DNA of 20,000 nt from an uncultured virus (IMG/VR IMGVR_UViG_3300043570_001522) (taxonomy: Duplodnaviria > Heunggongvirae > Uroviricota > Caudoviricetes): IMG/VR virus record IMGVR_UViG_3300043570_001522. The stretch is one strand, 5' to 3'. This document shows positions 2 through 12,741 of the stretch, one piece after another (positions within the stretch are counted from its first letter, which is position 1; every line of letters begins with the position of its first letter). The notes beneath the pieces were generated by a model that saw nothing but the letters and a program-made list of their open reading frames with translations, ran no database searches and had not been told where the DNA came from. Made by a program: the position numbers and the translations under genes.

Positions 2-3000
2 AATAGTATTCAGCAAGAAATAATTAATAAGTTATTTCATGTTGCCATTAGTTCAAAAGAAGAAATAGATTCATTGTCTGCAAACTTAAGTGACACTGCT
101 TCTGCTAATACAATTGTGGTTCTTAATAAAGAAGATCATACCTATGTAGATATTACTAATAGAGAAATCTATAAATCAGTTACTACAGCAATCAAAGGTC
201 AACTTGCTAATGAAGAAGATGTACAACTTAATTTAGCCATTGGAAATGATGTAGATGCTTTATTAGATGCAATTATATCAGAGCAATCATTTGATGAAGT
301 ATTTCCTAGCATGAAAGTTTTAGATGAGAAACTAGCTGGAGAAATGTTTGACATGTTGGAAGAACAACTTACTCAATTAATTCCTCAAGGTGCCGTTGGT
401 ATTTCTCAAGTAGTTGTATTTGATGAAGCAACAAAACTTGCTGGTACAGCTGACTTAGTTGTTATAGATAAGAATGGTAAAATTAGAATTGTGGATTTAA
501 AGACAAGTAAAAATTCTATTTATGATAGAACTTTTGTTGACTCAATTAAAAATAAAGTACCAGGTAGAACTCAAGGCACTAAATATGAAATCAAAGAATA
601 TGAGTTAAAAGATGATATGCCTGCTTTAGATGCAGAAGGAAAACCTATCTTAAATGCTGATGGTACACCAAAAATATTTCTTGGTAGTGACCTTAAAAAA
701 ATTCATGGGGTTGATAAACTATCAACCATGGCTCAACACAATCTTCAAGTAAATCTTTATAGACGTATGTTTGAAAACATGGGTTATACTGTTTATGAAG
801 GAGACGGTGGTGCTATTACATTTCATATACAAGCAGACATAACTGGTGTAGGAAAAGACCAAGTGTTTAATAATAACTTCAGATTAGATGGTAGGGTTGA
901 ACATCCACTATCTGAAAACTTATTATATGTTAATATGCTTGTCCCATCTGTAATGAATAATACAGAAAAAGAAAGCCTTGATAGAGCAATTGGTAATGCA
1001 GAAGATGCTATTTACCGTGGTGATCAAGATATAGAAGCATTAGAAAAAATTGCTGATACAATTGATGCTCAACAATATCCGGAGTATAATACTATTTTTG
1101 ATGCATTACAAAACTATAGTCTTGCTTTAGTAGAACAAGACAAAGCATTAGATAGACTTAAGACTAATGTTTATAGAGACAAAACTAAAGAACAAACGCG
1201 TGATGATATTGCAAGTACATTAGCCTACATTGCTAGCAATATTAATACAGGACCAATAGCTAGATCTCAAACCTACACTAATTTATTAAGAGCTTCTTTA
1301 AATCAAATGCAAAAATTTACTGCATATGTTTTGGATCCAGCTAATATAAACAAACCTGAGTATATTACCTATGCATTAAACTTCAATAGATTCTTAAGTA
1401 CATTTGAAGCTTTGTATTCAATTAAAGATTCTAAGGAACTTAACGCTACACAAAGAACACTAGTTCTTCAGATGCAACTTGAACAAAATAAGCTTATTGG
1501 TACAAGTGGTAAAGAAGGATTAATAAATGATGCTATTATTAACTATGTAAAAGAAACTATTAGAACCAGATCAACTAATGATTGGGGCGGTCAAGGTAGT
1601 GCATTTACAGAAGATATGTTAGATGATCTTATGACTATATCTCCGGATATTGCAATGGATGCATTAAATGTACAAGATATGGCTACTCAAAAAGATACCA
1701 TACTTGCAGTAATGGATAAAATATATAAGAGTCAAAAACAAAAACTTTTAGATCAAATTGAAGAAAGAGAATTTTCAATTAGAACTGCAGGTAATGAGTT
1801 ATTAAAACTTTCAGGAAATAAAGATCTTCAAAGTCTTTATGACTTTATGTTGGAGTATGATAAGGATGGTGAATTTACTGGGTTCTATACTCAAAAAATT
1901 GGCCAACAATATTATTCAATGCAACAAGCATTGAGAAGTCAACTTTATGATGATAATGGTAATCCATATGAATACAGAGACGTAAGTAATTTAGATAAAG
2001 CAAAGCCGGAAGATATTAAATACAACATTGATCTTGCTAAAAAGAAAGCTGCATTTAGCAAATTCTTTCAAGCTGAAGGATCAAATGCTAATGGTGAATT
2101 GATTGATGGTGAATTTCATAAATATACTGATGAGTTTAAACAAGCTAGAAGTAGATATGAATTTTGGGTACCATCTAAAAATAAAGAATATGGAACTTGG
2201 TATAGAAAACCAAGAATATCAGATAGGGACTACGCTATATATGAAGCCAAGTATTATAACTTTGGTACATATACTAAAGCATTAAGAACTAATGGTCAAC
2301 CAACAGGAGCAATAGCAAAAGAACAAGTATTACGTTCTCCAAAAGTTAAGTTTAGAGTGGCTAGAGAAATATCTGAATCTGGCCAAGATATGCGTAGTAA
2401 AAAGTATGCTGCATTAATGGATCTTAATAAAACAGATGCATTAAGTGTTGCTCAAAGAAATTTTTATAATATGTTTATTACATATTATGAAACTGAATTA
2501 TTAAATAAATTACCACAAAGTATCAAAGATCAAATGTCAGGACGTGTTCCTATTGTTAAAAATAATATTTTAGATACTTTAAAAGACCAACCAAACATTG
2601 TATCTAAAATGTATGCTAATACAGTTAGATCTATTAAGAACTTTACACAAGAGACAGCAACACAAAAGAATGTTTTACTTGATGAACAAGGTAATTTTGT
2701 TGATTCACTTCCTATATTCTATACAGGTAAGTTAAGAGTAGATGAAGATCTTGCTAATGTTGAAACAGAGATAACAGCATTACAAGATAAAAAGAGAAAG
2801 GGATTAATTGGTCCTGAAGCATATAAACAAGAATTGTTATTACTTAATGGTAAAGCAGCACAACTTAGGAGTCAACCTTCATTAGGAGAACTTAATAAAG
2901 ACATGACTAATGCTTTACTTAAGTTTAGTGCAATGGCAGAACATTATGAAGTGATGGGTGAAATTGAAGACACTCTTACTGCAATGGTAAAAGTTATTGA

Positions 3001-4618
3001 AAATAGAACATATACTCCAGCTGATCCATTAATAGTTACAGGAACAAGAATTGACAATAAATTTAAAAAAGTAGGTACAATTAAAGGTACAGACTCCAAT
3101 GCTTTAAGAAGAGCTAAGAAATACATGTCAATGATTTACTATGATAATGAGCTTGCAACAAAAGGAATGATTGATAAAGTTGCTGATGAGCTTATTGGTC
3201 TATCTTCATTATCTTATGTAGCATTTAACCCATTTGGTAACCTTAATAACTATGTTATGGGTAGAATCAATAATGGTATTGAAATGTTAGGTAGTAGATA
3301 CTTTAGTAAACAAAACTATGCCAGAGCTTCTAGAGAATATAATGTGCAAGGTATTCCAGGATTATTAGCTAGAACAAGTGCGGCTGCAACTGATATTGCT
3401 GATATTGTTACACTAGGGAAAGCTGGATTAAAAAAATCAGACTATGATGCAAATAAACCTAATACTAAATATGAAGCTTTTGTAGATATGTTTAGAATGA
3501 TGGATAAAGCTACAGATATCCGTGAAAATACTTCTGAGTTTGATAGCAAATCTATTTGGTCTAGATTTAAAGAATGGGGATATGTAATACAAGATGCTGC
3601 TGAATACAATGTGCAAAGTAAAGTTGGTATGGCTATACTTATGGATGTTACAATTAAAAACAGTAGCACTGGAGAAACATTATCACTTTATGATGCATTC
3701 CAATATAATTCAGATACTCATAAAAATGAATTAATGCCTGGGTATGATACTATTATAAATAAAAATGGAAGTGAGCAACCATACAGTGATCAATTTAGAT
3801 ATGATTTAAGAAATGAAATTAGAGAGGTGAATAAACAAATTCACGGTAACTATGCTAAAGAAGATAGAATGGTTATTCAAGGACATACTCTTGGGAATTT
3901 AGCAACACAGTTTCACAAGTGGGTAGCACCTGCAATTAGAGCTAGATTTAGAAGAGAATACTTTGATCAAAATTTAGGATGGATTGAAGGTAGATATAGA
4001 TCTTTCTTTAAATTTTTAAATCATGCTAAAGGTGAAATAGTCCGTGGTAATTTTAATATAAATCCTGCTAAGTATAATGAAAGTTTTAAAGAAGCATATG
4101 GTTTCACAGGACAAGGTGGAAATCTAGATCAAAGAGCTGAAGATAAACTTAGAGGTTTTTATAGAACAACTGGTGAAATTGGTATTATGTTAAGTATTGT
4201 TGTATTAAACTCATTATTGGCCGGTATATTAGCTGGTGATGATGATGATGAAGAGTTAACCAAAAGATTAAAAAATCTTGTAAGACTACAAGGAGACAGA
4301 ACATATAAAGAGATGGTATTATTTACACCATTGCCTGAAGGTTTAAAACAACAATATGCGTTAATGAAATCACCAATTGCAACTACAAGAACATTAGGTG
4401 AATTAGGTGAAGCAATATCATTAAGTTATATGACACCATTAGCATATATATATGAAGGTAAAGATGGATTTTATGCTGATAAAGATTATGTATATCAAAA
4501 CAAACCTAATAAAGGTCAATTAAAATTATACAAAAACTGGGCAGATGTTGTTCCTATTTTATATTCTATACAGAAATGGGATAATATGATCAAAGCACAA
4601 GATTTCTACATCAAGTAA
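2..4618 (+). CDS. Giant virion-associated (probably injected/cargo) protein, 5'-truncated, with PD-(D/E)XK nuclease-like domain and a C-terminal hydrophobic helix
   Basis: The frame is open from position 2 (aat agt att cag...), so the TTG at 74 is probably not the real start. Motifs HTY..SVTT, AGTADLVVIDKNGKIRIVDLKTS and QVNLYRRM are typical of RecB-like PD-(D/E)XK nucleases. The long body is followed by hydrophobic GIMLSIVVLNSLLAGILAG near the C-terminus. This resembles the giant proteins of crAss-like phages. Confidence 0.7.
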   Translation, partial: NSIQQEIINKLFHVAISSKEEIDSLSANLSDTASANTIVVLNKEDHTYVDITNREIYKSVTTAIKGQLANEEDVQLNLAIGNDVDALLDAIISEQSFDEVFPSMKVLDEKLAGEMFDMLEEQLTQLIPQGAVGISQVVVFDEATKLAGTADLVVIDKNGKIRIVDLKTSKNSIYDRTFVDSIKNKVPGRTQGTKYEIKEYELKDDMPALDAEGKPILNADGTPKIFLGSDLKKIHGVDKLSTMAQHNLQVNLYRRMFENMGYTVYEGDGGAITFHIQADITGVGKDQVFNNNFRLDGRVEHPLSENLLYVNMLVPSVMNNTEKESLDRAIGNAEDAIYRGDQDIEALEKIADTIDAQQYPEYNTIFDALQNYSLALVEQDKALDRLKTNVYRDKTKEQTRDDIASTLAYIASNINTGPIARSQTYTNLLRASLNQMQKFTAYVLDPANINKPEYITYALNFNRFLSTFEALYSIKDSKELNATQRTLVLQMQLEQNKLIGTSGKEGLINDAIINYVKETIRTRSTNDWGGQGSAFTEDMLDDLMTISPDIAMDALNVQDMATQKDTILAVMDKIYKSQKQKLLDQIEEREFSIRTAGNELLKLSGNKDLQSLYDFMLEYDKDGEFTGFYTQKIGQQYYSMQQALRSQLYDDNGNPYEYRDVSNLDKAKPEDIKYNIDLAKKKAAFSKFFQAEGSNANGELIDGEFHKYTDEFKQARSRYEFWVPSKNKEYGTWYRKPRISDRDYAIYEAKYYNFGTYTKALRTNGQPTGAIAKEQVLRSPKVKFRVAREISESGQDMRSKKYAALMDLNKTDALSVAQRNFYNMFITYYETELLNKLPQSIKDQMSGRVPIVKNNILDTLKDQPNIVSKMYANTVRSIKNFTQETATQKNVLLDEQGNFVDSLPIFYTGKLRVDEDLANVETEITALQDKKRKGLIGPEAYKQELLLLNGKAAQLRSQPSLGELNKDMTNALLKFSAMAEHYEVMGEIEDTLTAMVKVIENRTYTPADPLIVTGTRIDNKFKKVGTIKGTDSNALRRAKKYMSMIYYDNELATKGMIDKVADELIGLSSLSYVAFNPFGNLNNYVMGRINNGIEMLGSRYFSKQNYARASREYNVQGIPGLLARTSAAATDIADIVTLGKAGLKKSDYDANKPNTKYEAFVDMFRMMDKATDIRENTSEFDSKSIWSRFKEWGYVIQDAAEYNVQSKVGMAILMDVTIKNSSTGETLSLYDAFQYNSDTHKNELMPGYDTIINKNGSEQPYSDQFRYDLRNEIREVNKQIHGNYAKEDRMVIQGHTLGNLATQFHKWVAPAIRARFRREYFDQNLGWIEGRYRSFFKFLNHAKGEIVRGNFNINPAKYNESFKEAYGFTGQGGNLDQRAEDKLRGFYRTTGEIGIMLSIVVLNSLLAGILAGDDDDEELTKRLKNLVRLQGDRTYKEMVLFTPLPEGLKQQYALMKSPIATTRTLGELGEAISLSYMTPLAYIYEGKDGFYADKDYVYQNKPNKGQLKLYKNWADVVPILYSIQKWDNMIKAQDFYIK

Positions 4619-4687
4619 TTATATGCAATTGCATATTGCAATACGCAATATAACCAATACTATATGTAGAAACATATAATGAATGAG

Positions 4688-4733
4688 AAAGCCATCATTA
4701 AACCTTAAAAAAGGACTTAGTGATGGCTTTTTC
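4688..4733. terminator. Intrinsic (probably bidirectional) terminator hairpin
   Basis: Stem aaagccatcatta...tagtgatggcttt with one G-U pair, inner cctt/aagg, followed by a T run. It lies between convergent genes. Confidence 0.75.
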
Positions 4734-4761
4734 ATACATTAAATTAACTTATAAGTTAATT

Positions 4762-4941
4762 TTAGTTATTCATTTTAGAAGAAACTATTAGTTCTCCTTT
4801 CTTAAACAAGTCTTCTACACATATTTGTGATAAATTAAACATATCTGATATATCTTGGGCAGACAATATAGGATATCTTTCTTTATATTCATATATTAAG
4901 AGTTTGGTTTTATTTGTCAATTTAGTTTTATTGTCTTTCAT
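4762..4941 (-). CDS. Small protein, possible helix-turn-helix (59 aa, not in the ORF track)
   Basis: Manual translation MKDNKTKLTNKTKLLIYEYKERYPILSAQDISDMFNLSQICVEDLFKKGELIVSSKMNN*. The segment LSAQDISDMFNLSQ looks like an HTH. Its start overlaps the end of the upstream ORF. Confidence 0.55.
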   Translation of the reverse strand: MKDNKTKLTNKTKLLIYEYKERYPILSAQDISDMFNLSQICVEDLFKKGELIVSSKMNN

Positions 4942-5167
4942 TCTTGGATTGTTTAATTAATTCTCTTTCATCTTCAAAAACATATCTATATTTAACATCT
5001 TTGTATTCTTCCATTATCCATGGATTTTCCAGCTTTCTCCAAAAGTTTTTATCATCTTTTGTTTCTACAGCTAAAATTATATGGGAATCATTATATCCAC
5101 ATACATGACCTTTATATTTTTTATGCACTACTTGCATATTTTTATATTTTTCAAATACTTGTTTCAT
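4928..5167 (-). CDS. Hypothetical protein (79 aa)
   Basis: ORF with an A-rich leader, packed in tandem with its neighbours. Confidence 0.65.
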   Translation of the reverse strand: MKQVFEKYKNMQVVHKKYKGHVCGYNDSHIILAVETKDDKNFWRKLENPWIMEEYKDVKYRYVFEDERELIKQSKNERQ

Positions 5168-5176
5168 ATTTTATTT

Positions 5177-5368
5177 TTAATTATTATGCATATTTGCATA
5201 ACTGATTGTAAAAAAAATAAAGCCAATTTCTATACCTGATACAAGACGGTAAACATCATCTTCACATAAAACTTGACAGTTGATAAACTTTAGACCCAAT
5301 ATAGGTTCTGTTGGCAAAAGCTCTATATTAAATCTGTTTTTAAAAATTAAAGGGTTGATTTTATTCAT
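5177..5368 (-). CDS. Hypothetical protein (63 aa)
   Basis: First ORF of the small inverted operon, ending 9 nt before the next gene. Confidence 0.55.
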   Translation of the reverse strand: MNKINPLIFKNRFNIELLPTEPILGLKFINCQVLCEDDVYRLVSGIEIGFIFFTISYANMHNN

Positions 5369-5402
5369 AATGAATTTTTGGTTTAAGTTAATTTTATAAA
5401 AT

Positions 5403-5419
5403 TATTTTTGTATATTATA
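5403..5419 (+). promoter_or_regulatory. Putative promoter: TAnnTTTG (-7-like) overlapping a TTGTATATTATA motif
   Basis: tatttttg at 5403-5410 matches the Bacteroidota -7 consensus. ttgtatattata at 5408-5419 recurs at 6194-6205. Confidence 0.45.
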
Positions 5420-5472
5420 GGTGTATAGTTTAGGCAATAGCCTAGCAAATATAAGATATATATATATTTATA

Positions 5473-5859
5473 ATGAAAAATAGAATAATTAATATTTTCA
5501 GTTATTATGATACTGAACCAATGGAAATACTTATTGGTTTAATATGGTTTATCCTGTTGCCAATCATATGGTGCTTTGAGTTTTCTTGTAACTTATTTAT
5601 CATTATCCCAAGTATTTTATTGGGTATAGCTATGATTAAAGCAACATGTTCTCATCCAATTAAAGTTAGAAAAACTTTATCTTACGGATCATTTATCTTC
5701 TCCATTTTTGTAATTCTAGCATTTGTATTTAGAGGTGCAATGGACAATCCTTCTCATTGGTTATGGTTTTTACCATCAATTATATCTTTTTTAAACCTAA
5801 CAGCAATGACATCAAAATATTATAGAAAACAAAAACAAAGTAGCCATGACATCATATGA
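5473..5859 (+). CDS. Multi-pass membrane protein (about 4 TM), first gene of the lysis-associated block
   Basis: Four hydrophobic segments and a basic C-terminal tail. It overlaps the next gene by 14 nt. Confidence 0.7.
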   Translation: MKNRIINIFSYYDTEPMEILIGLIWFILLPIIWCFEFSCNLFIIIPSILLGIAMIKATCSHPIKVRKTLSYGSFIFSIFVILAFVFRGAMDNPSHWLWFLPSIISFLNLTAMTSKYYRKQKQSSHDII

Positions 5860-6160
5860 TAATTTAACAACTGTATTAGTCACAATGATGACTGTTCTAT
5901 TCTCTGCTGGAGCATGGAAATTTTATGAAAAAAAAATAAAGTTAAAAACTGAGTTAGAACGGGAAGATAGAACTGATCAGAATATGTATAGAGATGATTT
6001 AAGAGATAGAGTCAGAAGGCTTGAACAATTACTTACAGACAGTGCAATTGAAAAAGATGTAATGAGAGAACAAATCCTTTCACTTACTAAAGAAGTAACG
6101 GCATTACATGTAAAAGTTGAGTACTTAGAAAAAGAAAATCAAAGACTTAAGAATATTTAA
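5846..6160 (+). CDS. N-terminal TM plus coiled-coil protein (holin/antiholin-like candidate)
   Basis: TM LTTVLVTMMTVLFSAGAW followed by heptads (LRDRVRRLEQLL, LTKEVTALHVKVEYLEKEN). Confidence 0.65.
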   Translation: MTSYDNLTTVLVTMMTVLFSAGAWKFYEKKIKLKTELEREDRTDQNMYRDDLRDRVRRLEQLLTDSAIEKDVMREQILSLTKEVTALHVKVEYLEKENQRLKNI

Positions 6161-6168
6161 GCAACTTA

Positions 6169-6205
6169 TATATTTGGTTTTATATATTAGAAGTTGTATA
6201 TTATA
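6169..6205 (+). promoter_or_regulatory. Putative promoter: TATATTTG plus TTGTATATTATA
   Basis: tatatttg at 6169-6176 fits TAnnTTTG. ttgtatattata at 6194-6205 lies 30 nt upstream of the ATG at 6236. Confidence 0.45.
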
Positions 6206-6235
6206 TATAAGTAATATTAATCAAAATTAAAAATT

Positions 6236-6448
6236 ATGTTTAAAAAAGTATTATTGGCTACATGGACTTCTTCATTAGAGAAATTTTGGAATTTTATTTT
6301 ACCAAAAACACCAATTAATGAAATTGAAGTGAGAAGTGTATTAGTTAAGCCAAAAATTGAAGATATTGTTGATACAGTTAAAGTTGCACCAGCTAAACCT
6401 AAAAAAAAATATTATAAATCAAAACCTAAAGTAAATACTAAAAAATAA
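6236..6448 (+). CDS. Small Lys-rich hypothetical protein
   Basis: 70 aa ORF ending in the basic tail PAKPKKKYYKSKPKVNTKK. Confidence 0.65.
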   Translation: MFKKVLLATWTSSLEKFWNFILPKTPINEIEVRSVLVKPKIEDIVDTVKVAPAKPKKKYYKSKPKVNTKK

Positions 6449-6462
6449 TTTACTCATACTAA

Positions 6463-7572
6463 ATGAAAAATTTATCAAAAGAAGAGTTATTAAGTAGACT
6501 TGAAGCAATTAATAGAAGTAATGCTATTATCTACTTTGATCTTAGTGGTATTATACTAGGAGTAAATGACATTTTTTTGGAAGCAATGGGTTATGGTGCG
6601 AGTAATCATGATGAACTTATAGGTAAACATCATAGTACTTTTGTATGTGAAGAATATGCAAAGTCAACTGAATATGAAAAATTTTGGGACATATTAAGAA
6701 GTGGTAAATACTACCAGGGAGAATTTGAGAGAAGAAGAAAAGATGGAAGTCTTATTAATCTTCAAGCAACTTATAATCCTATTTTTGATGATAGTGGTAA
6801 GATTACTAAAATAATGAAGATTGCTACTGACATTAGTGCTATTGTTAGTAGTAAAAAACAGATAGATGCTATCAATAGAAGTACAGCTCTTATTAGTTTT
6901 AATACTGACGGGTTTATAACAGATGTAAATCCTATATTTTTACAAACTATGGGGTATAAATCCAATGAAAAAGATAAAGTCATTGGAAAGCATCATAGTA
7001 TTTTTGTAAGTTATGAATATTCAAAGTCAGATGAGTATGCTAAGTTTTGGGAGAATTTAAGAAAAGGTACATTCTTTGATGGGATATTTGAAAGAAGGAA
7101 AGTAGATGGATCTATTGTTTATTTACAAGCATCATATAATCCTGTACTTGACAGTAAAGGTAATATTACAGATGTAGTTAAAATTGCAACTGATATTACT
7201 GAAGCTGTAAACAGTAAAAAGAAAATAGATGAACTGTCAAATAATTTAGCAGTTGAATTAAAAAACTCTGAAAAACTTAAAGACGCAATAGAAAAAGAAA
7301 AAGATGCTGCTTTAAATGACTTAGATGCAGTATTAAAAAAGAGTCAAAATGAATTAATAAAAGTAATTGTCAAATGTGCTTTGGCAGTTATATTAGGAGT
7401 TGGAGTTGTAACAACTGTACTATATTGGGCAGCTATTATAACAAATAAAGAAACTCAAATAATTGGATCAACATGGAGTAATATGTTTAGTGTATTATTA
7501 ACTAATGCATTTTCAATAGTAGGTACAATTATGGGCATTAAGTATGCCACACAAGAAGGTAGTAACAAATAA
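6463..7572 (+). CDS. Tandem PAS-PAS / coiled-coil / 2-TM membrane protein directly upstream of the endolysin
   Basis: Two internal repeats (aa ~13-125 and ~134-246) carry PAS/PAC hallmarks: AINRS..I.F..G.I..VN..FL..MGY, IGKHHS.FV, FW..LR.G, R.DGS, LQA.YNP, KIATDI. A coiled coil spans aa ~247-298 and hydrophobic helices lie at aa ~301-326 and ~333-359. Confidence 0.9.
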   Translation: MKNLSKEELLSRLEAINRSNAIIYFDLSGIILGVNDIFLEAMGYGASNHDELIGKHHSTFVCEEYAKSTEYEKFWDILRSGKYYQGEFERRRKDGSLINLQATYNPIFDDSGKITKIMKIATDISAIVSSKKQIDAINRSTALISFNTDGFITDVNPIFLQTMGYKSNEKDKVIGKHHSIFVSYEYSKSDEYAKFWENLRKGTFFDGIFERRKVDGSIVYLQASYNPVLDSKGNITDVVKIATDITEAVNSKKKIDELSNNLAVELKNSEKLKDAIEKEKDAALNDLDAVLKKSQNELIKVIVKCALAVILGVGVVTTVLYWAAIITNKETQIIGSTWSNMFSVLLTNAFSIVGTIMGIKYATQEGSNK

Positions 7573-7583
7573 AAAAGAACAAG

Positions 7584-8051
7584 ATGCAACTGAGTAAAAA
7601 TTTAGCACTAGCAGAAGTAACAAGAAGTGAAACTGCAAAGAGAAAAGGAATTAGTAATATGCCAACTCCAGAACACATTGAAAATTTTAAAAAGTTAGCT
7701 GAGAATATATTCCAGCCAATTAGAGAACACTTTGGAGTTCCTATTCATATCTCATCAGGGTACAGAAGCAAGGCTCTTAATACTGCTATTGGAGGAAGTT
7801 TATCTTCACAGCATTGCCAGGGTGAAGCTATTGATATTGATATGGATGGTAGTGCAAGTGGTGTTACTAATGCAGATGTATTTAAGTACATCAAAGATAA
7901 TTTAAATTTTGATCAAATGATTTGGGAATTTGGTACTGATAAAAACCCTGATTGGGTACACGTATCTTATGAGTCAACCGGTAAACAAAGAAAACAAATT
8001 TTAAAAGCTGTAAAAGCTGGAGGAAAAACAAGCTATGTACCATATAAGTAA
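7584..8051 (+). CDS. Endolysin, peptidase M15 family (Zn-dependent)
   Basis: Motifs ISSGYRS..LN..IGG, SQHCQGEAID and WVHVS give the His/Asp/His zinc ligands of M15-type peptidases. Confidence 0.88.
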   Translation: MQLSKNLALAEVTRSETAKRKGISNMPTPEHIENFKKLAENIFQPIREHFGVPIHISSGYRSKALNTAIGGSLSSQHCQGEAIDIDMDGSASGVTNADVFKYIKDNLNFDQMIWEFGTDKNPDWVHVSYESTGKQRKQILKAVKAGGKTSYVPYK

Positions 8052-8370
8052 GTTTATAAAACAACAATGGCTTGGATCCATTTTAATTGTACTGTTCTTC
8101 CTATTCTTGTTTTATGGAATAGGACAGAATAGTGAATTGAAAAAAGAAAAGGAAGCTCTTGAAAAAGACATTGAAGTGCTTGAGCAAAAGGAACTATTAC
8201 ACTGGTATAAACTTGATAGTTTAAAGGTTAGTGAAAGCACTATAATCAAAAAAGAAAAAATATTAATACAAATACAACATGACACAATTAAGGTTATTGA
8301 TACTATGTCTACTAGTGAGCTTCAAAAGTATTTCACAAACAGATACTATCAAAAAGATAGTATTAGATGA
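8035..8370 (+). CDS. Inner-membrane spanin (Rz-like) candidate
   Basis: N-terminal TM (WLGSILIVLFFLFLFYGIG) followed by a coiled coil. It overlaps the 3' end of the endolysin gene. Confidence 0.6.
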   Translation: MYHISKFIKQQWLGSILIVLFFLFLFYGIGQNSELKKEKEALEKDIEVLEQKELLHWYKLDSLKVSESTIIKKEKILIQIQHDTIKVIDTMSTSELQKYFTNRYYQKDSIR

Positions 8371-8746
8371 AAGAGTTGGTAGAGAAGTTGTAAAAGATCT
8401 TATTAAAGGAGATGTTTGTAGACAGCTTTTAACTCTTAAGAATGAAAATATTAAGAACTTGCAAGAGCAGAATAAAGAACTTGCAGAGATTATAAAAATT
8501 AAAGACAGTATTCTTTCTAAGAAAGATGATATAATTACTATTCAAGATAAAGCTATTGGTTGGTGGAAAAAACCTGAGCTTCATGGATATCTAAGAGTTC
8601 AGACTGTAAATATCAGTTTAGTTGATCCTTATTTATTTGGAATTGTAATGGTGGAATTTCCAAAGATTAAAATAGGAGGGCAATATTTTGTACAACCAAA
8701 TAATCCAACAGGGTATGGATTAATTCTTGAATATAAATTATTTTAA
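8279..8746 (+). CDS. Secreted coiled-coil protein overlapping the Rz-like gene; outer spanin analogue
   Basis: It overlaps the previous gene by 92 nt in another frame. It has a signal peptide (MTQLRLLILCLLVSFKSIS/Q), a coiled coil and a beta-strand-like C-terminus ending GYGLILEYKLF. Confidence 0.6.
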   Translation: MTQLRLLILCLLVSFKSISQTDTIKKIVLDERVGREVVKDLIKGDVCRQLLTLKNENIKNLQEQNKELAEIIKIKDSILSKKDDIITIQDKAIGWWKKPELHGYLRVQTVNISLVDPYLFGIVMVEFPKIKIGGQYFVQPNNPTGYGLILEYKLF

Positions 8747-8750
8747 ACTA

Positions 8751-8900
8751 ATGGCAGCTAAAGCAAAAACACAAACAACAACATTCAAACCTACTGTAAA
8801 AGTAAGCAGACCTGGTGTACATGCTAAAAAGTCAACTTCTAAATTAAAATCTAGTAAAAACTATAAAAAAAGTTATGTTGGCCAAGGTAAAAGAAGATAA
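8751..8900 (+). CDS. Small basic protein (49 aa, not in the ORF track)
   Basis: Manual translation MAAKAKTQTTTFKPTVKVSRPGVHAKKSTSKLKSSKNYKKSYVGQGKRR*. It starts 4 nt after the previous stop and resembles small basic phage proteins ending Y.GQG. Confidence 0.7.
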   Translation: MAAKAKTQTTTFKPTVKVSRPGVHAKKSTSKLKSSKNYKKSYVGQGKRR

Positions 8901-8949
8901 TTTTTATGTTTATTTACATAAAAAAAAAGATAAGGACAAGGTAAGTAAT

Positions 8950-9096
8950 ATGGAAGATTGGGAATTAACAATAGAATTTCATTGGCCGCATGATAGATTT
9001 GCGTTGGGATGGGATTACATTCCTCCTGATAGGACTTTCAATTATACTACTATTAAATTTTATTTATTATTTATTACATTTACATTAGATTATTAA
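8950..9096 (+). CDS. Hypothetical protein (48 aa)
   Basis: MEDWELTIEFHWPHDRFALGWDY... The ATG at 8950 is preferred over 8875, which lies inside the upstream gene. Confidence 0.55.
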   Translation: MEDWELTIEFHWPHDRFALGWDYIPPDRTFNYTTIKFYLLFITFTLDY

Positions 9097-9108
9097 AAAA
9101 TTAAAACT

Positions 9109-9393
9109 ATGAAAGCTCAAGGTTTACAACAAGGTAAGATTTCAAAACAAAAAGTAAAACTTTTATGTAGAGAAGGAGGGGAATTAGATGATGCTATGTT
9201 ATCTTCTATGGTTGAAAAAATGAGAAAAGGTGGTGATGCCATGAGATATGCAACAAGTGCTGATGGTTCAACAAAAAAACAAGCATATAAAATGGGTGGT
9301 TGGATTGATGAATATGGAAGCTCAAAAAAGAAAAAATATATGAATGGTGGACAACCAACATCTTTTATATACTCAGGTCCATCTAAAAAATAA
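9109..9393 (+). CDS. Small basic protein with repeated GG motifs
   Basis: Contains CREGG, MRKGG, YKMGG and YMNGG. Confidence 0.7.
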   Translation: MKAQGLQQGKISKQKVKLLCREGGELDDAMLSSMVEKMRKGGDAMRYATSADGSTKKQAYKMGGWIDEYGSSKKKKYMNGGQPTSFIYSGPSKK

Positions 9394-9398
9394 TAACT

Positions 9399-9998
9399 AT
9401 GAATATTTTAACTGACGTATTAAGTTTAATAAGAAGAGGTGTGTTTGTAAAACAAGCACAACCTGATGATGTTATTGTAATTGGTGTAAATGAGCAACCA
9501 GATATGACTGGTGTTGCTTCACCAATACCATATAAATCTGTTAAGCTTATCAAGGTTAAAGATCTTAAGATTGCACCTGCATTTTGTGATAATGAAAATA
9601 CTTATTATTATCCAGAAGCTGGAGTAATTGGTCCATTTAAAGAACAAATAATTGATCCGGTAACTAATGTTTGTACAAATTATTTTAGATCTTTTATGTC
9701 ATTAAGTCCTAACTTGCTTATTAATGAATCAATTGACGGTGATCTTATTGAACTTACTACTACAGGTGAACCTAATACTGCAGCTAATTTAGGTACAGGT
9801 ACGGGTTTATATGCTAGTAAAGTAGGTGAAACACTTAATTTTAAATCATTAAAAGGTGTAGGTGTATCTATAACTCAATCAGCAACTGAAGTAACTTTAA
9901 ATTATGCAACAAGAGTGGTATTAACTTCACCTGATGGTGGCCTATGGCAAGTCACTGTTAATGATCTAGGAGTACTTGAAACAGCACTAATATCATAA
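9399..9998 (+). CDS. Putative virion structural / tail-fibre-like protein
   Basis: Gly/Thr-rich segment NTAANLGTGTGLYASKVGETLNFKSL and C-terminal VLTSPDG..WQVTVNDLG, both resembling phage fibre proteins. The N-terminus resembles that of 11118..12284. Confidence 0.55.
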   Translation: MNILTDVLSLIRRGVFVKQAQPDDVIVIGVNEQPDMTGVASPIPYKSVKLIKVKDLKIAPAFCDNENTYYYPEAGVIGPFKEQIIDPVTNVCTNYFRSFMSLSPNLLINESIDGDLIELTTTGEPNTAANLGTGTGLYASKVGETLNFKSLKGVGVSITQSATEVTLNYATRVVLTSPDGGLWQVTVNDLGVLETALIS

Positions 9999-9999
9999 A

Positions 10000-10266
10000 A
10001 TGAGAACTGAAAAAAAAATAAGTTGGATTAAAGGTTTGCTTCAAGATGAAACAGGTATTCCCTCATCAAAAAGATTTGTTGGTATTATAGCAGGTCTTGT
10101 TTTATCTTTCACGCTTATTGTAAATCAATTTACTCCAAAATTAACAGATCCATCTCCTGTATTAGTTAATGCAGTTGCAATGTTAGCATTTGGATGTTTG
10201 GGATTGGCTTCTGTAGATAAAATTTGGGGTAAAAGAAATTCAGAAAATATAAACAATAACCAATAA
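10000..10266 (+). CDS. Two-TM membrane protein (holin-like candidate)
   Basis: 88 aa, SSKRF motif followed by two hydrophobic helices and a charged C-terminus. Confidence 0.55.
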   Translation: MRTEKKISWIKGLLQDETGIPSSKRFVGIIAGLVLSFTLIVNQFTPKLTDPSPVLVNAVAMLAFGCLGLASVDKIWGKRNSENINNNQ

Positions 10267-10268
10267 AT

Positions 10269-10505
10269 ATGAAAGTCATGATTAGTAAAGAAAGCAAAGC
10301 AGAAGAACGCAAATGGCAAATTCAATCTGCATTAAGCACACTGCAAAGAGCTGAAGAAATTAAAAATGATACATCTTTAATGAGAGATGTTAAAAAAGCT
10401 GCCGGTATGGAAGCTAAGAGATTACAAACATTAGCTAATGGTGGTAGTGTTATATCAAGTGCTAAAAAAGCACCTGTTAAAAAAGTAGTAACTAAAAAAA
10501 AATAA
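10269..10505 (+). CDS. Small basic hypothetical protein
   Basis: ORF in operon context with LANGG and a Lys-rich tail. Confidence 0.65.
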   Translation: MKVMISKESKAEERKWQIQSALSTLQRAEEIKNDTSLMRDVKKAAGMEAKRLQTLANGGSVISSAKKAPVKKVVTKKK

Positions 10506-10511
10506 GACAAA

Positions 10512-10760
10512 ATGGGAACTCCTAAACAAGGCATTTCTTTTCCAGCTCAAGGATTAGTATACCAAAGAGAAACAACAAATGGATATTATGATCCTACATC
10601 TATACCTGCAGCTATTCAACAAAAAAAGAATCAAGCTAAGGTATTAAGAAGTATTAAGAAAGCAAAAGATGGAATTAATATTCCAAGATCAAGTACAAGA
10701 GCAAAAGAACCAGTACAATCAGCTGCATTTAAAAGCGGTAATTGTGGATATAAAAAATAA
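10512..10760 (+). CDS. Small basic hypothetical protein
   Basis: ORF tightly packed in the operon. Confidence 0.65.
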   Translation: MGTPKQGISFPAQGLVYQRETTNGYYDPTSIPAAIQQKKNQAKVLRSIKKAKDGINIPRSSTRAKEPVQSAAFKSGNCGYKK

Positions 10761-12468: not shown

Positions 12469-12741
12469 ATGGCAAAGACAGCTGCATGGCAAAGAGCCGA
12501 AGGTAAAAGTAAGAGTGGTGGATTAAATGCTAAAGGTGTTGCTAGTTATAGAAGAGAAAATCCAGGTAGTAAACTACAGACTGCGGTAACTAAAAAGCCT
12601 TCAGAATTAAAACCTGGTAGTAAAGATGCTAAAAGACGTAAATCCTTTTGTGCAAGAATGTCAGGAGTTAAAGGTCCAATGAAAGATGAAAAGGGTAAAC
12701 CTACAAGAAAAGCATTGGCTTTGAGAAAATGGAACTGCTAA
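12469..12741 (+). CDS. Conserved basic phage protein (DUF6321-like)
   Basis: Motifs AWQR.EGK..SGGLNAKG.ASY, RRKSFCARM and ALRKWNC, recalled from a widespread phage family. Confidence 0.65.
   Translation: MAKTAAWQRAEGKSKSGGLNAKGVASYRRENPGSKLQTAVTKKPSELKPGSKDAKRRKSFCARMSGVKGPMKDEKGKPTRKALALRKWNC

What the first reader, a model, noticed from the sequence alone, without database searches (positions are those of the whole stretch)
6463..7572. PAS-PAS-coiled coil-2TM protein next to the endolysin: candidate sensor-gated holin or lysis timer
Seen: two tandem PAS/PAC domains (aa ~13-125 and ~134-246), a coiled coil of about 50 aa, then two hydrophobic helices and a short tail. The gene ends 11 nt before the M15 endolysin, which is followed by spanin-like genes. 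Established: this PAS subtype (IGKHH..FW..L..G..LQASYNP..K.ATDIT) is typical of soluble chemoreceptors such as Pseudomonas BdlA. PAS domains often sense redox, oxygen or small ligands through cofactors and normally drive an MCP, histidine kinase or GGDEF output. No such output is present here; the only effector is a small 2-TM module the size of a class II holin. Inference: the phage captured a bacterial sensor module and fused it to a membrane effector, so lysis timing could be coupled to host redox, oxygen or metabolic state. I do not know of a characterised equivalent.
Basis: partly seen in the sequence, partly recalled or inferred. Interest (0 to 1): 0.9.

Follow-up and report, generated by a model that had tools for sequence, protein, structure and literature searches.

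The report
PAS sensor fused to lysis-cassette hairpin
An uncultured lake-water phage encodes, just before its cell-wall-cutting enzyme, an optional protein that joins two cytoplasmic PAS sensor domains through one long helix to a phage-only, almost invariant two-helix membrane hairpin; it probably lets a signal inside the host adjust when the cell is burst, but nothing has been tested at the bench.

Summary
Window 6463-7572 (+) encodes a 369-aa protein with two Pfam PAS domains, one long helix, two membrane helices and an 8-residue tail. It ends 11 nt before an M15_3 endolysin.

- **A conserved output module.** The C-terminal helix plus hairpin is a family of its own, absent from Pfam. At least 579 relatives lie in viral contigs, 4 in 185,579 species genomes (all MAGs), and none in cultured phages.
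- **Swappable inputs.** The module carries two PAS, one PAS, a GAF domain, or a small N-terminal domain. In that last form a phage-encoded PAS histidine kinase and a receiver protein sit just upstream (48 of 48 and 45 of 48 well-flanked loci).
- **Lysis linkage.** Of 80 PAS-PAS loci, 69 have an endolysin of one of four families within three genes.
- **Optional gene.** It is present in only 25 of 80 loci chosen by a near-identical endolysin, and separate holin candidates are present, so it is unlikely to be the holin.
- **Strong selection.** Residues 331-363 are invariant in 81 sequences despite saturated synonymous change.

Best reading (about 0.5): an accessory, sensor-driven regulator of lysis timing. 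The cofactor, the signal and the membrane action are unknown. Eight earlier notes of this scan reached the same reading on other DNA.

The parts
6463..7572 (+). Gene for the PAS-PAS-helix-hairpin protein (369 aa, P0001)
   Evidence: ORF list and translation. Relatives of 367-388 aa and 85-100% identity fill the best 120 of 4022 hits.
6526..6837 (+). PAS-A (aa 22-125)
   Evidence: Pfam PAS_3 and PAS_9. PAS fold in the model with pLDDT about 90.
6886..7209 (+). PAS-B (aa 142-249)
   Evidence: Pfam PAS and PAS_4. It is 56% identical to PAS-A.
7198..7347 (+). Cytoplasmic part of the long connecting helix (aa 246-295)
   Evidence: The model shows one unbroken helix at 246-327. The small-N-domain relative has the same single helix.
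7348..7443 (+). Membrane helix 1 (aa about 296-327)
   Evidence: Hydropathy segment 296-328. It continues the connecting helix in the model.
7444..7479 (+). Short outer loop (aa 328-339)
   Evidence: Turn at 328-330 in the model. From residue 331 onward the loop is invariant in 81 sequences.
7480..7545 (+). Membrane helix 2 (aa 340-361), with a stripe of small and polar residues (N340, S343, T347, N348, S351, G354, T355, G358)
   Evidence: Residues 331-363 are invariant in 81 sequences. At 30 of 33 sites there is more than one codon but a single amino acid. G354 and T355 are invariant and N340, L345, F350 and I352 nearly so across the wider family.
7546..7572 (+). 8-residue cytoplasmic tail and stop codon
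   Evidence: Translation. This is the least conserved part.
7584..8051 (+). M15_3 endolysin, 11 nt downstream
   Evidence: Pfam PF08291 at 1.2e-20 and phrog_894 endolysin at 1.2e-39. Gap read directly from the sequence.
8035..8370 (+). Spanin-like gene: N-terminal membrane helix plus helical region
   Evidence: Hydropathy segment 7-35. Only sub-threshold Pfam hits. The role is assigned by anatomy alone.
8279..8746 (+). Spanin-like gene overlapping the previous one; signal-peptide-like N-terminus
   Evidence: Translation. Relatives (cluster 7) recur downstream of the PAS gene in 13 loci. No family match.
10000..10266 (+). Small 2-TM protein (88 aa), the most likely holin of this phage group
   Evidence: Two hydropathy segments. 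Relatives lie within three genes of the PAS gene in 53 of 80 loci. In many loci that lack the PAS gene they lie within about 300 nt upstream of the endolysin (read by eye, not counted). No Pfam or PHROG match.
5473..5859 (+). Multi-TM protein (128 aa) upstream
   Evidence: Hydropathy. It is 36% identical (5e-19) to a protein that lies between the receiver gene and the hairpin gene in 18 of 82 kinase-type loci.
5846..6160 (+). Membrane helix plus helical protein (104 aa)
   Evidence: phrog_2658 'hol-like chemotaxis' at 8.3e-8. Relatives lie one or three genes upstream of the PAS gene in 9 of 80 loci.

Best explanation
The gene encodes an accessory, sensor-driven regulator of lysis timing.

**Proposed mechanism**
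- The tandem PAS pair sits in the cytoplasm and reads an intracellular cue. Its nature is undetermined; a flavin or redox signal or a small ligand is most plausible.
- The signal passes down one continuous helix, probably in a parallel dimer as in Aer, histidine kinases and NifL.
- This repositions a two-helix membrane hairpin (N-in, C-in).
- The hairpin then changes when the lethal membrane lesion forms and the soluble M15 endolysin is released.

**How the hairpin acts.** I favour self-association into a gated leak that dissipates the membrane potential and so fires whichever holin is present. The reason is that the hairpin is invariant while the co-resident holins vary. Direct binding to a holin, as an antiholin does, is the second option.

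**Related form.** In related phages the same hairpin module carries a small N-terminal domain instead of PAS. It is preceded by a phage-encoded membrane PAS histidine kinase and a stand-alone receiver. The window's protein is therefore the one-piece form of a phage signalling pathway.

**Shown:** architecture, conservation, linkage to lysis genes, optional presence, alternative inputs.
**Inferred:** dimerisation, the cue, topology, and any effect on lysis.
For: 1. **Architecture.** Two PAS domains, then a single helix at 246-327 running into a hairpin.

2. **Lysis linkage.** 69 of 80 related viral loci have an endolysin cluster within three genes. The clusters are GH19, PG_binding_1+phrog_3000, M15_3 and GH24. 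In 43 of 80 the endolysin is adjacent, and 76 of 80 have an endolysin, a Phage_holin_4_1 or the small 2-TM gene nearby. Among loci with at least four genes on each side, 51 of 55 hold an endolysin. The gene lies before or after the endolysin in different phages, while the other flanking genes differ.

3. **Conserved output with interchangeable inputs.**
   - Searching aa 247-369 alone found 97 representatives. In the rows that span most of the query the module sits at the C-terminus.
   - The inputs are two PAS, one PAS, GAF (2.5e-17), a C2H2 finger (sub-threshold), or a conserved small N-terminal domain.
   - The small-domain form is preceded by a PAS+HATPase_c kinase in 74 of 82 loci and by a Response_reg protein in 74 of 82. 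With at least four genes on both sides the counts are 48 of 48 and 45 of 48.
   - No receiver was found in 0 of 80 PAS-PAS loci.
   - The kinase PAS region matches the window-type PAS pair at up to 36% identity over 264 aa.

4. **Selection.** Residues 331-363 are invariant in 81 sequences. Third-codon-position identity there is 0.62, as low as elsewhere in the gene.

5. **Viral only.** At least 579 relatives in viral contigs against 4 in 185,579 species genomes, all MAGs.

6. **Accessory gene.** Present in 25 of 80 loci selected by an 83-94% identical endolysin.

7. **Tight spacing.** It runs in the same direction as the endolysin with an 11-nt gap.
Against: - No experiment and no cultured phage carries the module.
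- No expression data were found.
- Lysis cassettes are also common sites for unrelated accessory genes, so position alone does not prove function.
- No single holin family always accompanies the module. Of 55 well-flanked PAS-PAS loci, 12 have neither of the two recognised holin types.
- Linkage is looser for the kinase-type form. An endolysin lies in 30 of 48 well-flanked loci and a holin in 34 of 48.
- The related loci are not independent. Many are near-duplicates, and each search kept only the best 80.
- Each cluster's family name rests on one representative.
- The cofactor is unknown. The nearest solved PAS domains are flavin sensors by my recollection (MmoS 1.1e-11, Aer 3.1e-6, NifL 6.4e-5). 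In the stretch where MmoS reads IVNSGY and NifL reads ILSNGT and several phage kinases and hairpin fusions read IVNSG, this protein reads FVCEEY and FVSYEY.
Confidence: 0.5

Rival explanations
1. It is the holin itself. A class II-type 2-TM hole-former carries a large cytoplasmic sensor that gates hole formation.
For: - It has two membrane helices with predicted N-in, C-in topology, directly upstream of a soluble endolysin.
- No Pfam-recognised holin lies in the window.
- Helix 2 carries a stripe of small and polar residues that could line a pore.
Against: - It is optional among phages with a near-identical endolysin: 55 of 80 loci lack it, and 13 of 21 with at least 3 kb on both sides.
- Phage_holin_4_1 genes occur in 36 of 80 loci and a small 2-TM gene in 53 of 80. 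The window itself has a small 2-TM gene at 10000-10266.
- Its 369 aa, with a 295-aa cytoplasmic part and a tail holding one basic residue, is unlike known holins (recalled knowledge).
- It matches no holin family.
Confidence: 0.1
2. It is a late-expressed membrane effector that is not about lysis timing. Possible roles are superinfection exclusion, shutting down host respiration or transport, or acting on a conserved host membrane protein. On this reading it merely sits in the lysis region as accessory genes often do.
For: - Its distribution is optional and moron-like.
- The extreme conservation of helix 2, whichever holin is nearby, suggests a conserved partner such as a host protein.
- Linkage to lysis genes is weaker for the kinase-type form.
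Against: - It is found beside four different endolysin families and in different gene orders, while the other neighbours are not conserved.
- It matches no defence family. The only hit is one sub-threshold match at 0.0037 over the helix.
Confidence: 0.25
3. It is a decoy of host signalling. The membrane-tethered PAS pair would titrate a ligand or partner of a host PAS sensor, and the hairpin would serve only as an anchor.
For: - The PAS pair resembles cellular tandem-PAS chemoreceptors, at 42.6% identity to a PAS-PAS-MCP.
- One source names the family 'methyl-accepting chemotaxis protein'.
Against: - The hairpin, not the PAS pair, is the most conserved part.
- The hairpin also occurs without PAS, behind a phage kinase and receiver.
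- An anchor would not need 33 invariant residues.
Confidence: 0.05

Closest known systems
Lysis inhibition of phage T4: holin T with antiholins RI (periplasmic) and RIII (cytoplasmic). PMC11413866 and PMC8385771; only the search listing and the start of each abstract were seen.
   Same: A phage-encoded accessory protein in or near the lysis genes makes lysis timing depend on a signal.
   Different: - RI and RIII have no PAS, GAF or kinase input and no sequence similarity to this protein.
- RI is reported to sense superinfection from the periplasm and to bind the holin's periplasmic domain.
- Here the sensor is cytoplasmic and holin binding has not been shown.
Lysis inhibition in Vibrio phage ICP1. 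PMC7182436; listing and start of abstract seen. The gene names TeaA and ArrA are recalled or come from earlier notes.
   Same: It is a second example of regulated lysis timing by a holin and antiholin pair outside the T-even phages.
   Different: The proteins are unrelated and no sensor domains have been described.
Aer-type aerotaxis receptors: PAS, then a membrane hairpin, then HAMP and an MCP domain. The solved PAS domain 8DIK matched at 3.1e-6. The architecture is recalled.
   Same: A cytoplasmic PAS domain sits N-terminal to a two-helix membrane hairpin with both ends in the cytoplasm.
   Different: - Aer continues after the hairpin with HAMP and a kinase-control domain.
- This protein ends 8 residues after the hairpin, so the hairpin is the output and not a tether.
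Soluble tandem-PAS chemoreceptors of the BdlA and McpS type. Passages of PMC8694187 were read. A natural example is the PAS-PAS-MCP in locus L243.
   Same: They share the same tandem PAS arrangement and PAS subtype, at 42.6% identity over aa 13-266.
   Different: - Their output is a methyl-accepting signalling domain, which is absent here.
- That paper predicts FAD for BdlA and McpS from sequence only.
Class II holins and pinholins, such as S21 of phage 21 (recalled knowledge)
   Same: Two membrane helices, N-in and C-in, encoded next to the endolysin. A small-residue stripe on one helix.
   Different: Those proteins are about 70-100 aa, are essential for lysis, and have charged C-terminal tails. 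This protein is 369 aa and optional, and it matches no holin family.
Phage-encoded signal receptors: VqmA of vibriophage VP882, which has a PAS domain (PMC8284805, listing and start of abstract), and the AgrC-like kinase of phage phiCDHM1 (PMC3901668, passages read).
   Same: Phages carry their own PAS receptor or histidine kinase in order to sense a cue.
   Different: - VqmA is a transcription factor that governs the switch from lysogeny to lysis.
- phiCDHM1 has no response regulator and its kinase has no identified receptor domain.
- Neither ends in a membrane effector in the lysis cassette.
LytSR control of LrgAB and CidAB holin-like and antiholin-like proteins in staphylococci (recalled knowledge, not checked here)
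   Same: A two-component system is wired to holin-like membrane proteins.
   Different: That system is cellular and acts through transcription. Here the receiver has no DNA-binding domain and the pathway is encoded by the phage.

Membership tests
PAS domain superfamily | Sequence match to PAS profiles above the curated cut-off | tested here: met
   PAS_3 at 90.4 bits (cut-off 25.6), PAS_9 at 83.6 and PAS at 59.2, two stretches each.
PAS domain superfamily | PAS fold: a five-stranded sheet flanked by helices | tested here: met
   Two such folds in the model with pLDDT about 90. The top Foldseek matches are tandem-PAS sensors: MmoS, DosP, NifL, LOV-HK and FixL.
Flavin-binding PAS (NifL, MmoS and Aer type) | Conserved cofactor-contact motif in the helical region | tested here: inconclusive
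   The nearest solved sequences are MmoS, Aer and NifL. In the aligned stretch MmoS reads IVNSGY and NifL reads ILSNGT, and some phage kinases and hairpin fusions read IVNSG. This protein reads FVCEEY and FVSYEY. The identity of the contact residues is recalled, not tested.
Methyl-accepting chemotaxis protein (the name one source gives) | MCP signalling domain | tested here: not met
   No MCPsignal hit. Only PAS families were found.
Aer-type receptor | HAMP and a kinase-control domain after the membrane hairpin | tested here: not met
   The protein ends 8 residues after helix 2.
Holin (class II or pinholin) | Two membrane helices, N-in and C-in, encoded beside the endolysin | tested here: met
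   Hydropathy and the model; 11-nt gap to the M15 gene. Topology is inferred from the cytoplasmic nature of PAS domains.
Holin (class II or pinholin) | Match to a known holin family | tested here: not met
   No holin family in Pfam or PHROGs for P0001 or for its C-terminal 123 aa.
Holin (class II or pinholin) | Indispensable part of the lysis cassette: present wherever the cassette is | tested here: not met
   Absent from 55 of 80 loci with an 83-94% identical endolysin, and from 13 of 21 with at least 3 kb on both sides.
Holin (class II or pinholin) | Forms a lethal membrane lesion that releases endolysin | not testable with these tools
   This needs expression in a holin-defective lysogen.
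Antiholin or lysis regulator (a functional class) | Changes the time of holin triggering, usually by binding the holin | not testable with these tools
   Only genomic linkage is available.
New family: long helix plus hairpin module (alignment A1 and the C-terminus of P0001) | C-terminal helix, membrane helix 1, short loop with a conserved W-S-N, and membrane helix 2 with the conserved T-N-(S/A)-F-S-I-x-G-T stretch | tested here: met
   phmmer with aa 247-369 gave 97 representatives, 70 of them at 1e-10 or better. See also the alignments.
Two-component system (related loci, not the window) | A histidine kinase with an ATPase domain and a receiver with the phospho-acceptor Asp, encoded together | tested here: met
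   One representative of each was scanned: HATPase_c 4.4e-15 plus PAS_3 4.9e-14, and Response_reg 2.4e-7 (31.3 bits, cut-off 30.2). The receiver consensus keeps the acidic pocket and an invariant Asp in VFVDLN (residue roles recalled). The two genes are adjacent in 74 of 82 loci. The window itself has neither gene.

The most novel reading that the evidence does not exclude
A large group of uncultured aquatic phages owns a complete signalling pathway. It comes either as one-piece PAS or GAF fusions or as a kinase-to-receiver relay. It ends in a dedicated, phage-only membrane hairpin that acts as a holin-independent, signal-gated trigger or brake of lysis, by dissipating membrane potential. On this reading the moment of host lysis is a decision computed from the host's internal state and not a fixed holin clock.
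Probability: 0.3. Interest if true: 0.9.

Novelty: categorically new. Interest (0 to 1): 0.8.

Why it matters
**What is known.** Lysis timing is a central life-history trait of phages. Known control is either a holin 'clock' or, in a few phages, antiholins that respond to superinfection.

**What would be new.** A cytoplasmic sensor domain, or a whole phage-encoded two-component system, wired to a lysis-cassette membrane protein would be a new layer of control: lysis tuned to the host's redox, energy or metabolite state. It would also be a signalling output that is neither DNA-binding nor enzymatic.

**Scale.** The family is abundant: at least 579 viral contigs hold the module. The window's own stretch is held at half or more of its words by seven lake-water runs from seven studies, one of which may be the window's own sample.

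**Testability.** The hypothesis can be tested directly with synthetic genes, even though no host is in culture.

**Possible use.** The hairpin with swappable sensors could serve as a compact part for programmable lysis.

Tried and rejected
- **Complex prediction.** The hairpin (aa 285-369, alignment A2) was folded with the window's small 2-TM protein (alignment A3). The result was no verdict, score 0.00 in two runs. It is not evidence either way.
- **Sequencing runs.** No RNA holder was listed, so nothing can be said on expression.
- **ESM Atlas** on aa 247-369: no usable hit.
- **Promoter and terminator scan** of 4600-10600: 33 promoter-like sites against 37.4 expected and 1 terminator-like site against 1.2 expected, so it is uninformative.
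- **Cultured phages.** megablast of 5400-9000 found no match. tblastn of a small-domain family member (P0149) found no match. tblastn of P0001 found only 3 weak PAS matches.
- **Best of those three matches (MT836939.1).** It is a high-GC PAS-PAS-MCP beside a resolvase and a GGDEF/EAL gene. It looks like cellular DNA and is not a phage relative.
- **Own genome.** None is held for this window.
- **PADLOC.** One sub-threshold hit at 0.0037 over the helix and nothing else.
- **Heptad count** on aa 247-300: inconclusive.
- **Literature.** Seven searches found no paper on a PAS- or kinase-coupled lysis protein of a phage. Papers outside the open-access library were not searched.
- **'Simple membrane anchor' reading.** Rejected because the hairpin is the most conserved part of the protein.
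Full report
**1. The observation**

- Window 6463-7572 (+) is an ATG-started ORF of 369 aa.
- Pfam finds two PAS stretches at aa 22-125 and 142-249: PAS_3 9e-26, PAS_9 1.3e-23, PAS 5e-16 and PAS_4 1.9e-13. It finds no other domain. The two PAS domains are 56% identical, so they arose by tandem duplication.
- Hydropathy gives two membrane segments at about 296-328 and 341-359.
- An AlphaFold2 model built on a 56-row alignment has mean pLDDT 82.9 and pTM 0.41. It shows two PAS folds, one unbroken helix at 246-327 that runs from the end of PAS-B into the first membrane segment, a turn at 328-330, and a second helix at 331-365.
- The stop codon is at 7570-7572. After 11 nt comes the ATG of a Peptidase_M15_3 endolysin: PF08291 at 1.2e-20 and phrog_894 at 1.2e-39.
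- Downstream lie an overlapping pair of genes, 8035-8370 and 8279-8746. The first has an N-terminal membrane helix and the second a signal-peptide-like N-terminus. They are spanin-like by anatomy only.

The only caveat is that 'coiled coil' is supported as a long helix and not by a dedicated predictor.

**2. The setting**

- The window has about 30% G+C.
- It carries phage genes: a tail protein PHROG, DUF6321, MazG, dNMP kinase, DUF932 and a DNA polymerase fragment.
- No close cultured phage exists.
- The best isolate matches are Flavobacterium phage MaF61 (endolysin, 59.5%) and Cellulophaga phages (dNMP kinase, 37%). A Bacteroidota host is therefore a weak inference.
- Seven runs from seven studies hold at least half of the sampled words of 5400-8800, and all are labelled lake-water metagenome. 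One of them may be the window's own sample.

**3. The protein family and its neighbours**

*How common it is.* The protein search gave 4022 hits with E at or below 0.001 among 7999 scored candidates. The best 120 are all 367-388 aa and 85-100% identical. In IMG/VR, 281 stretches encode a relative, and the best 80 were kept (80-92% identity).

*Method.* I called ORFs in these 80 loci and clustered the neighbours. One representative of each large cluster was scanned against Pfam and PHROGs.

*Neighbour families found.*

| Cluster | Family | Members |
|---|---|---|
| 2 | GH19 endolysin | 29 |
| 3 | PG_binding_1 + phrog_3000 | 28 |
| 5 | M15_3 endolysin | 18 (17 loci plus the window) |
| 6 | GH24 lysozyme | 18 |
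| 4 and 11 | Phage_holin_4_1 | 25 and 11 |
| 1 | small 2-TM protein | 53 |
| 7 and 21 | secreted proteins with a C-terminal membrane helix | 13 and 8 |

*Linkage counts.*
- An endolysin cluster lies within three genes in 69 of 80 loci, and is adjacent in 43 of 80.
- Some lysis-type cluster is near in 76 of 80.
- Of the four loci without one, two have only one gene downstream and two (L042, L055) have long flanks.
- In loci with at least four genes on each side, 51 of 55 hold an endolysin.
- The other neighbours are not conserved: ribonucleotide reductase, glycosyltransferase and many unknowns. The PAS gene lies before or after the endolysin in different phages.

*Caveats.* The loci are not independent, since many are near-duplicates. 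They are the best 80 of 281. Each cluster's name rests on one scanned member.

**4. The gene is optional**

- I selected 80 viral loci by the endolysin alone (83-94% identical to the window's). Of these, 25 carry a hairpin-module gene and 55 do not.
- Among the 21 loci with at least 3 kb on both sides, 8 carry it and 13 do not.
- In many of the loci without it, the small 2-TM gene lies within about 300 nt upstream of the endolysin. This comes from reading the listing and was not counted.
- The window has its own small 2-TM gene at 10000-10266.
- This argues against the PAS protein being the holin.

**5. The C-terminus is a module of its own**

- *Search.* aa 247-369 alone were searched against 1.84 billion representatives. 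There were 97 hits at E 0.001 or better, 70 of them at 1e-10 or better. In the rows that span most of the query, the matched stretch ends within a few residues of the protein's C-terminus. Most hits are 100-260 aa long.
- *N-terminal parts* (reading of all 97 sequences, with a rough pattern count):
  - About 35 have a conserved small N-terminal domain with an L-E-G-N-I-L-K motif and a basic stretch.
  - One has two PAS domains.
  - Two (P0123, P0136) have one PAS, and one search confirmed PAS only for P0136. The third sequence that the pattern counted as 'one PAS' was not identified.
  - One has a GAF domain (PF01590, 2.5e-17).
  - One has a C2H2 finger below the Pfam cut-off.
  - The rest are fragments or have unrecognised N-termini.
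- *No known family.* The module has no Pfam family and only weak matches to phrog_1544 of unknown function.
- *Shape.* A model of the small-domain form (pLDDT 91.0) again shows a small head, one helix of about 120 residues and a hairpin.
It found 4 in 185,579 species genomes, all MAGs, and none in 50,697 phage records.

**6. A phage-encoded two-component system drives the same module**

*Gene order.* In 82 loci of the small-domain form, the upstream genes are a protein of about 410 aa and one of about 145 aa.
- The larger protein has PAS_3 (4.9e-14) and HATPase_c (4.4e-15), with two N-terminal membrane helices.
- The smaller protein matches Response_reg (2.4e-7, 31.3 bits against a cut-off of 30.2).

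*Counts.*

| Gene | All loci | Loci with at least four genes on both sides |
|---|---|---|
| Kinase | 74 of 82 | 48 of 48 |
| Receiver | 74 of 82 | 45 of 48 |

*Details.*
- The receiver consensus keeps the acidic pocket and an invariant Asp (residue roles are recalled knowledge).
- Of the 12 kinase genes inspected, some have the same PAS subtype as the window, three (the 546-aa L162 kinase, L161, L111) have an IVNSG-type PAS, and three (L128, L148 and the 407-aa L162 gene) have none.
- The window-type PAS pair matches the kinase PAS region at up to 36% identity over 264 aa.
- The two sets of phages also share holin, endolysin and small 2-TM genes at about 67-68% identity.
- No receiver occurs in any of the 80 PAS-PAS loci, and the window has neither kinase nor receiver.

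*Conclusion.* The window's protein is best read as the one-piece form of this pathway.

*Weaker linkage.* Linkage to lysis genes is looser for the kinase type. An endolysin lies in 30 of 48 well-flanked loci and one of the two holin types in 34 of 48.

**7. Selection**

- In 81 PAS-PAS sequences, residues 331-363 (the end of the loop and all of helix 2) are invariant.
- At 30 of these 33 sites there is more than one codon, and pairwise third-position identity is 0.62. That is as low as in the coiled region (0.62) and lower than in the PAS domains (0.68-0.71).
- The invariance therefore reflects purifying selection and not recent spread.
- One of the six search patterns lay in this stretch, which biases the sample slightly. 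However, the wider family shows the same conservation.
- Helix 2 carries a stripe of small and polar residues: N340, S343, T347, N348, S351, G354, T355 and G358.
- The co-resident small 2-TM proteins are far more variable, with a mean column identity of 39%.
- No holin family is universal. In 55 well-flanked loci, 18 have the small 2-TM type only, 6 have Phage_holin_4_1 only, 19 have both and 12 have neither.

**8. The sensor**

- *Nearest solved structures.* By sequence these are MmoS 3EWK (1.1e-11), Aer 8DIK (3.1e-6) and NifL 2GJ3 (6.4e-5). By fold they are tandem-PAS sensors of several cofactor types.
- *Cofactor.* From recalled knowledge the three sequence neighbours bind FAD. In the aligned stretch MmoS reads IVNSGY and NifL reads ILSNGT, and some phage kinases and hairpin fusions read IVNSG. 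The window protein reads FVCEEY and FVSYEY there.
- *BdlA type.* A paper on Pseudomonas PAS domains predicts FAD for BdlA and McpS from sequence (PMC8694187, passages read). I did not compare BdlA itself.
- *Verdict.* The cofactor is undetermined.

**9. Mechanism**

*Shown.* The architecture, the conserved output with swappable inputs, the lysis linkage, the optional presence and the selection.

*Inferred.*
- The PAS domains are cytoplasmic, so the hairpin is N-in and C-in.
- The long helix pairs in a dimer and transmits a conformational signal.
- The hairpin changes when the membrane lesion forms.

*How the hairpin acts.* The hairpin is invariant while the holins around it vary. I therefore favour a partner that is itself invariant: the hairpin's own copies (a gated leak that collapses membrane potential and fires any holin) or a host component. 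I rank this above binding to the variable holin.

*Odds.*

| Reading | Confidence |
|---|---|
| Sensor-driven lysis regulator | about 0.5 |
| Holin itself | 0.1 |
| Membrane effector unrelated to lysis timing | 0.25 |
| Signalling decoy | 0.05 |

**10. Comparison and novelty**

*Closest known systems.*
- T4 lysis inhibition (PMC11413866 and PMC8385771; listing and start of abstracts only).
- ICP1 lysis inhibition (PMC7182436; listing and start of abstract only).
- Aer-type PAS-hairpin receptors (architecture recalled; PAS match).
- Phage receptors such as VqmA of VP882 (PMC8284805, listing).
- The AgrC-like kinase of phiCDHM1, which has no response regulator (PMC3901668, passages).

None of these joins a sensor domain or a phage two-component system to a lysis-cassette membrane protein.

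*Literature.* Seven searches found no description of such a system. Subscription-only papers were not searched.

*Earlier notes.* Eight earlier notes of this scan describe the same kind of protein on other genomes with the same reading. I reached the reading before that call and re-derived each step here. They are not independent evidence.

Noticed in passing
L081-L160 (for example L132:422-1657 and L106:3732-4169): Related phages encode a complete two-component pair directly upstream of the hairpin-module gene. The kinase is membrane-bound and carries a PAS domain; the receiver stands alone with no DNA-binding domain.
   Followed up: yes
window 74-4618 (+): A 1514-aa protein whose N-terminus matches the PD-(D/E)XK nuclease family (2.8e-5) and exonuclease PHROGs. 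The remaining roughly 1300 residues have no match.
   Followed up: no
window 5473-5859 and 5846-6160 (+): A multi-TM protein and a membrane-helix-plus-helical protein overlap by 14 nt. In kinase-type loci a single protein of about 166 aa (set B cluster 7) has the multi-TM part followed by a helical tail with a similar M-Y-R-x-D-L motif. The window may therefore hold a split form. The second ORF hits phrog_2658 'hol-like chemotaxis'.
   Followed up: partly
window 8279-8746 (+): This spanin-like secreted protein has no standard lipobox and ends in Y-K-L-F, which resembles the C-terminal signature of outer-membrane proteins. Relatives in other loci instead end in a membrane helix, like unimolecular spanins.
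   Followed up: no
L243 (MT836939.1, 3538-8227): This record is filed as 'UNVERIFIED Bacteriophage sp.'. It is high in G+C and encodes a resolvase, a PAS-PAS-MCP chemoreceptor and a GGDEF/EAL protein, so it looks like cellular or plasmid DNA and not a phage.
   Followed up: partly
P0126, P0132, P0152, P0157: Some representatives join the hairpin module to odd N-termini: a dehydrogenase-like start, a glycosyltransferase, or the two membrane helices of the phage kinase. These may be real fusions or artefacts of assembly or gene calling.
   Followed up: no
window 12469-12741 (+): A 90-aa DUF6321 protein (6.4e-25). Its PHROG matches cover the C-terminal ends of much longer proteins, so it looks like a free-standing copy of a domain that is usually fused.
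   Followed up: no
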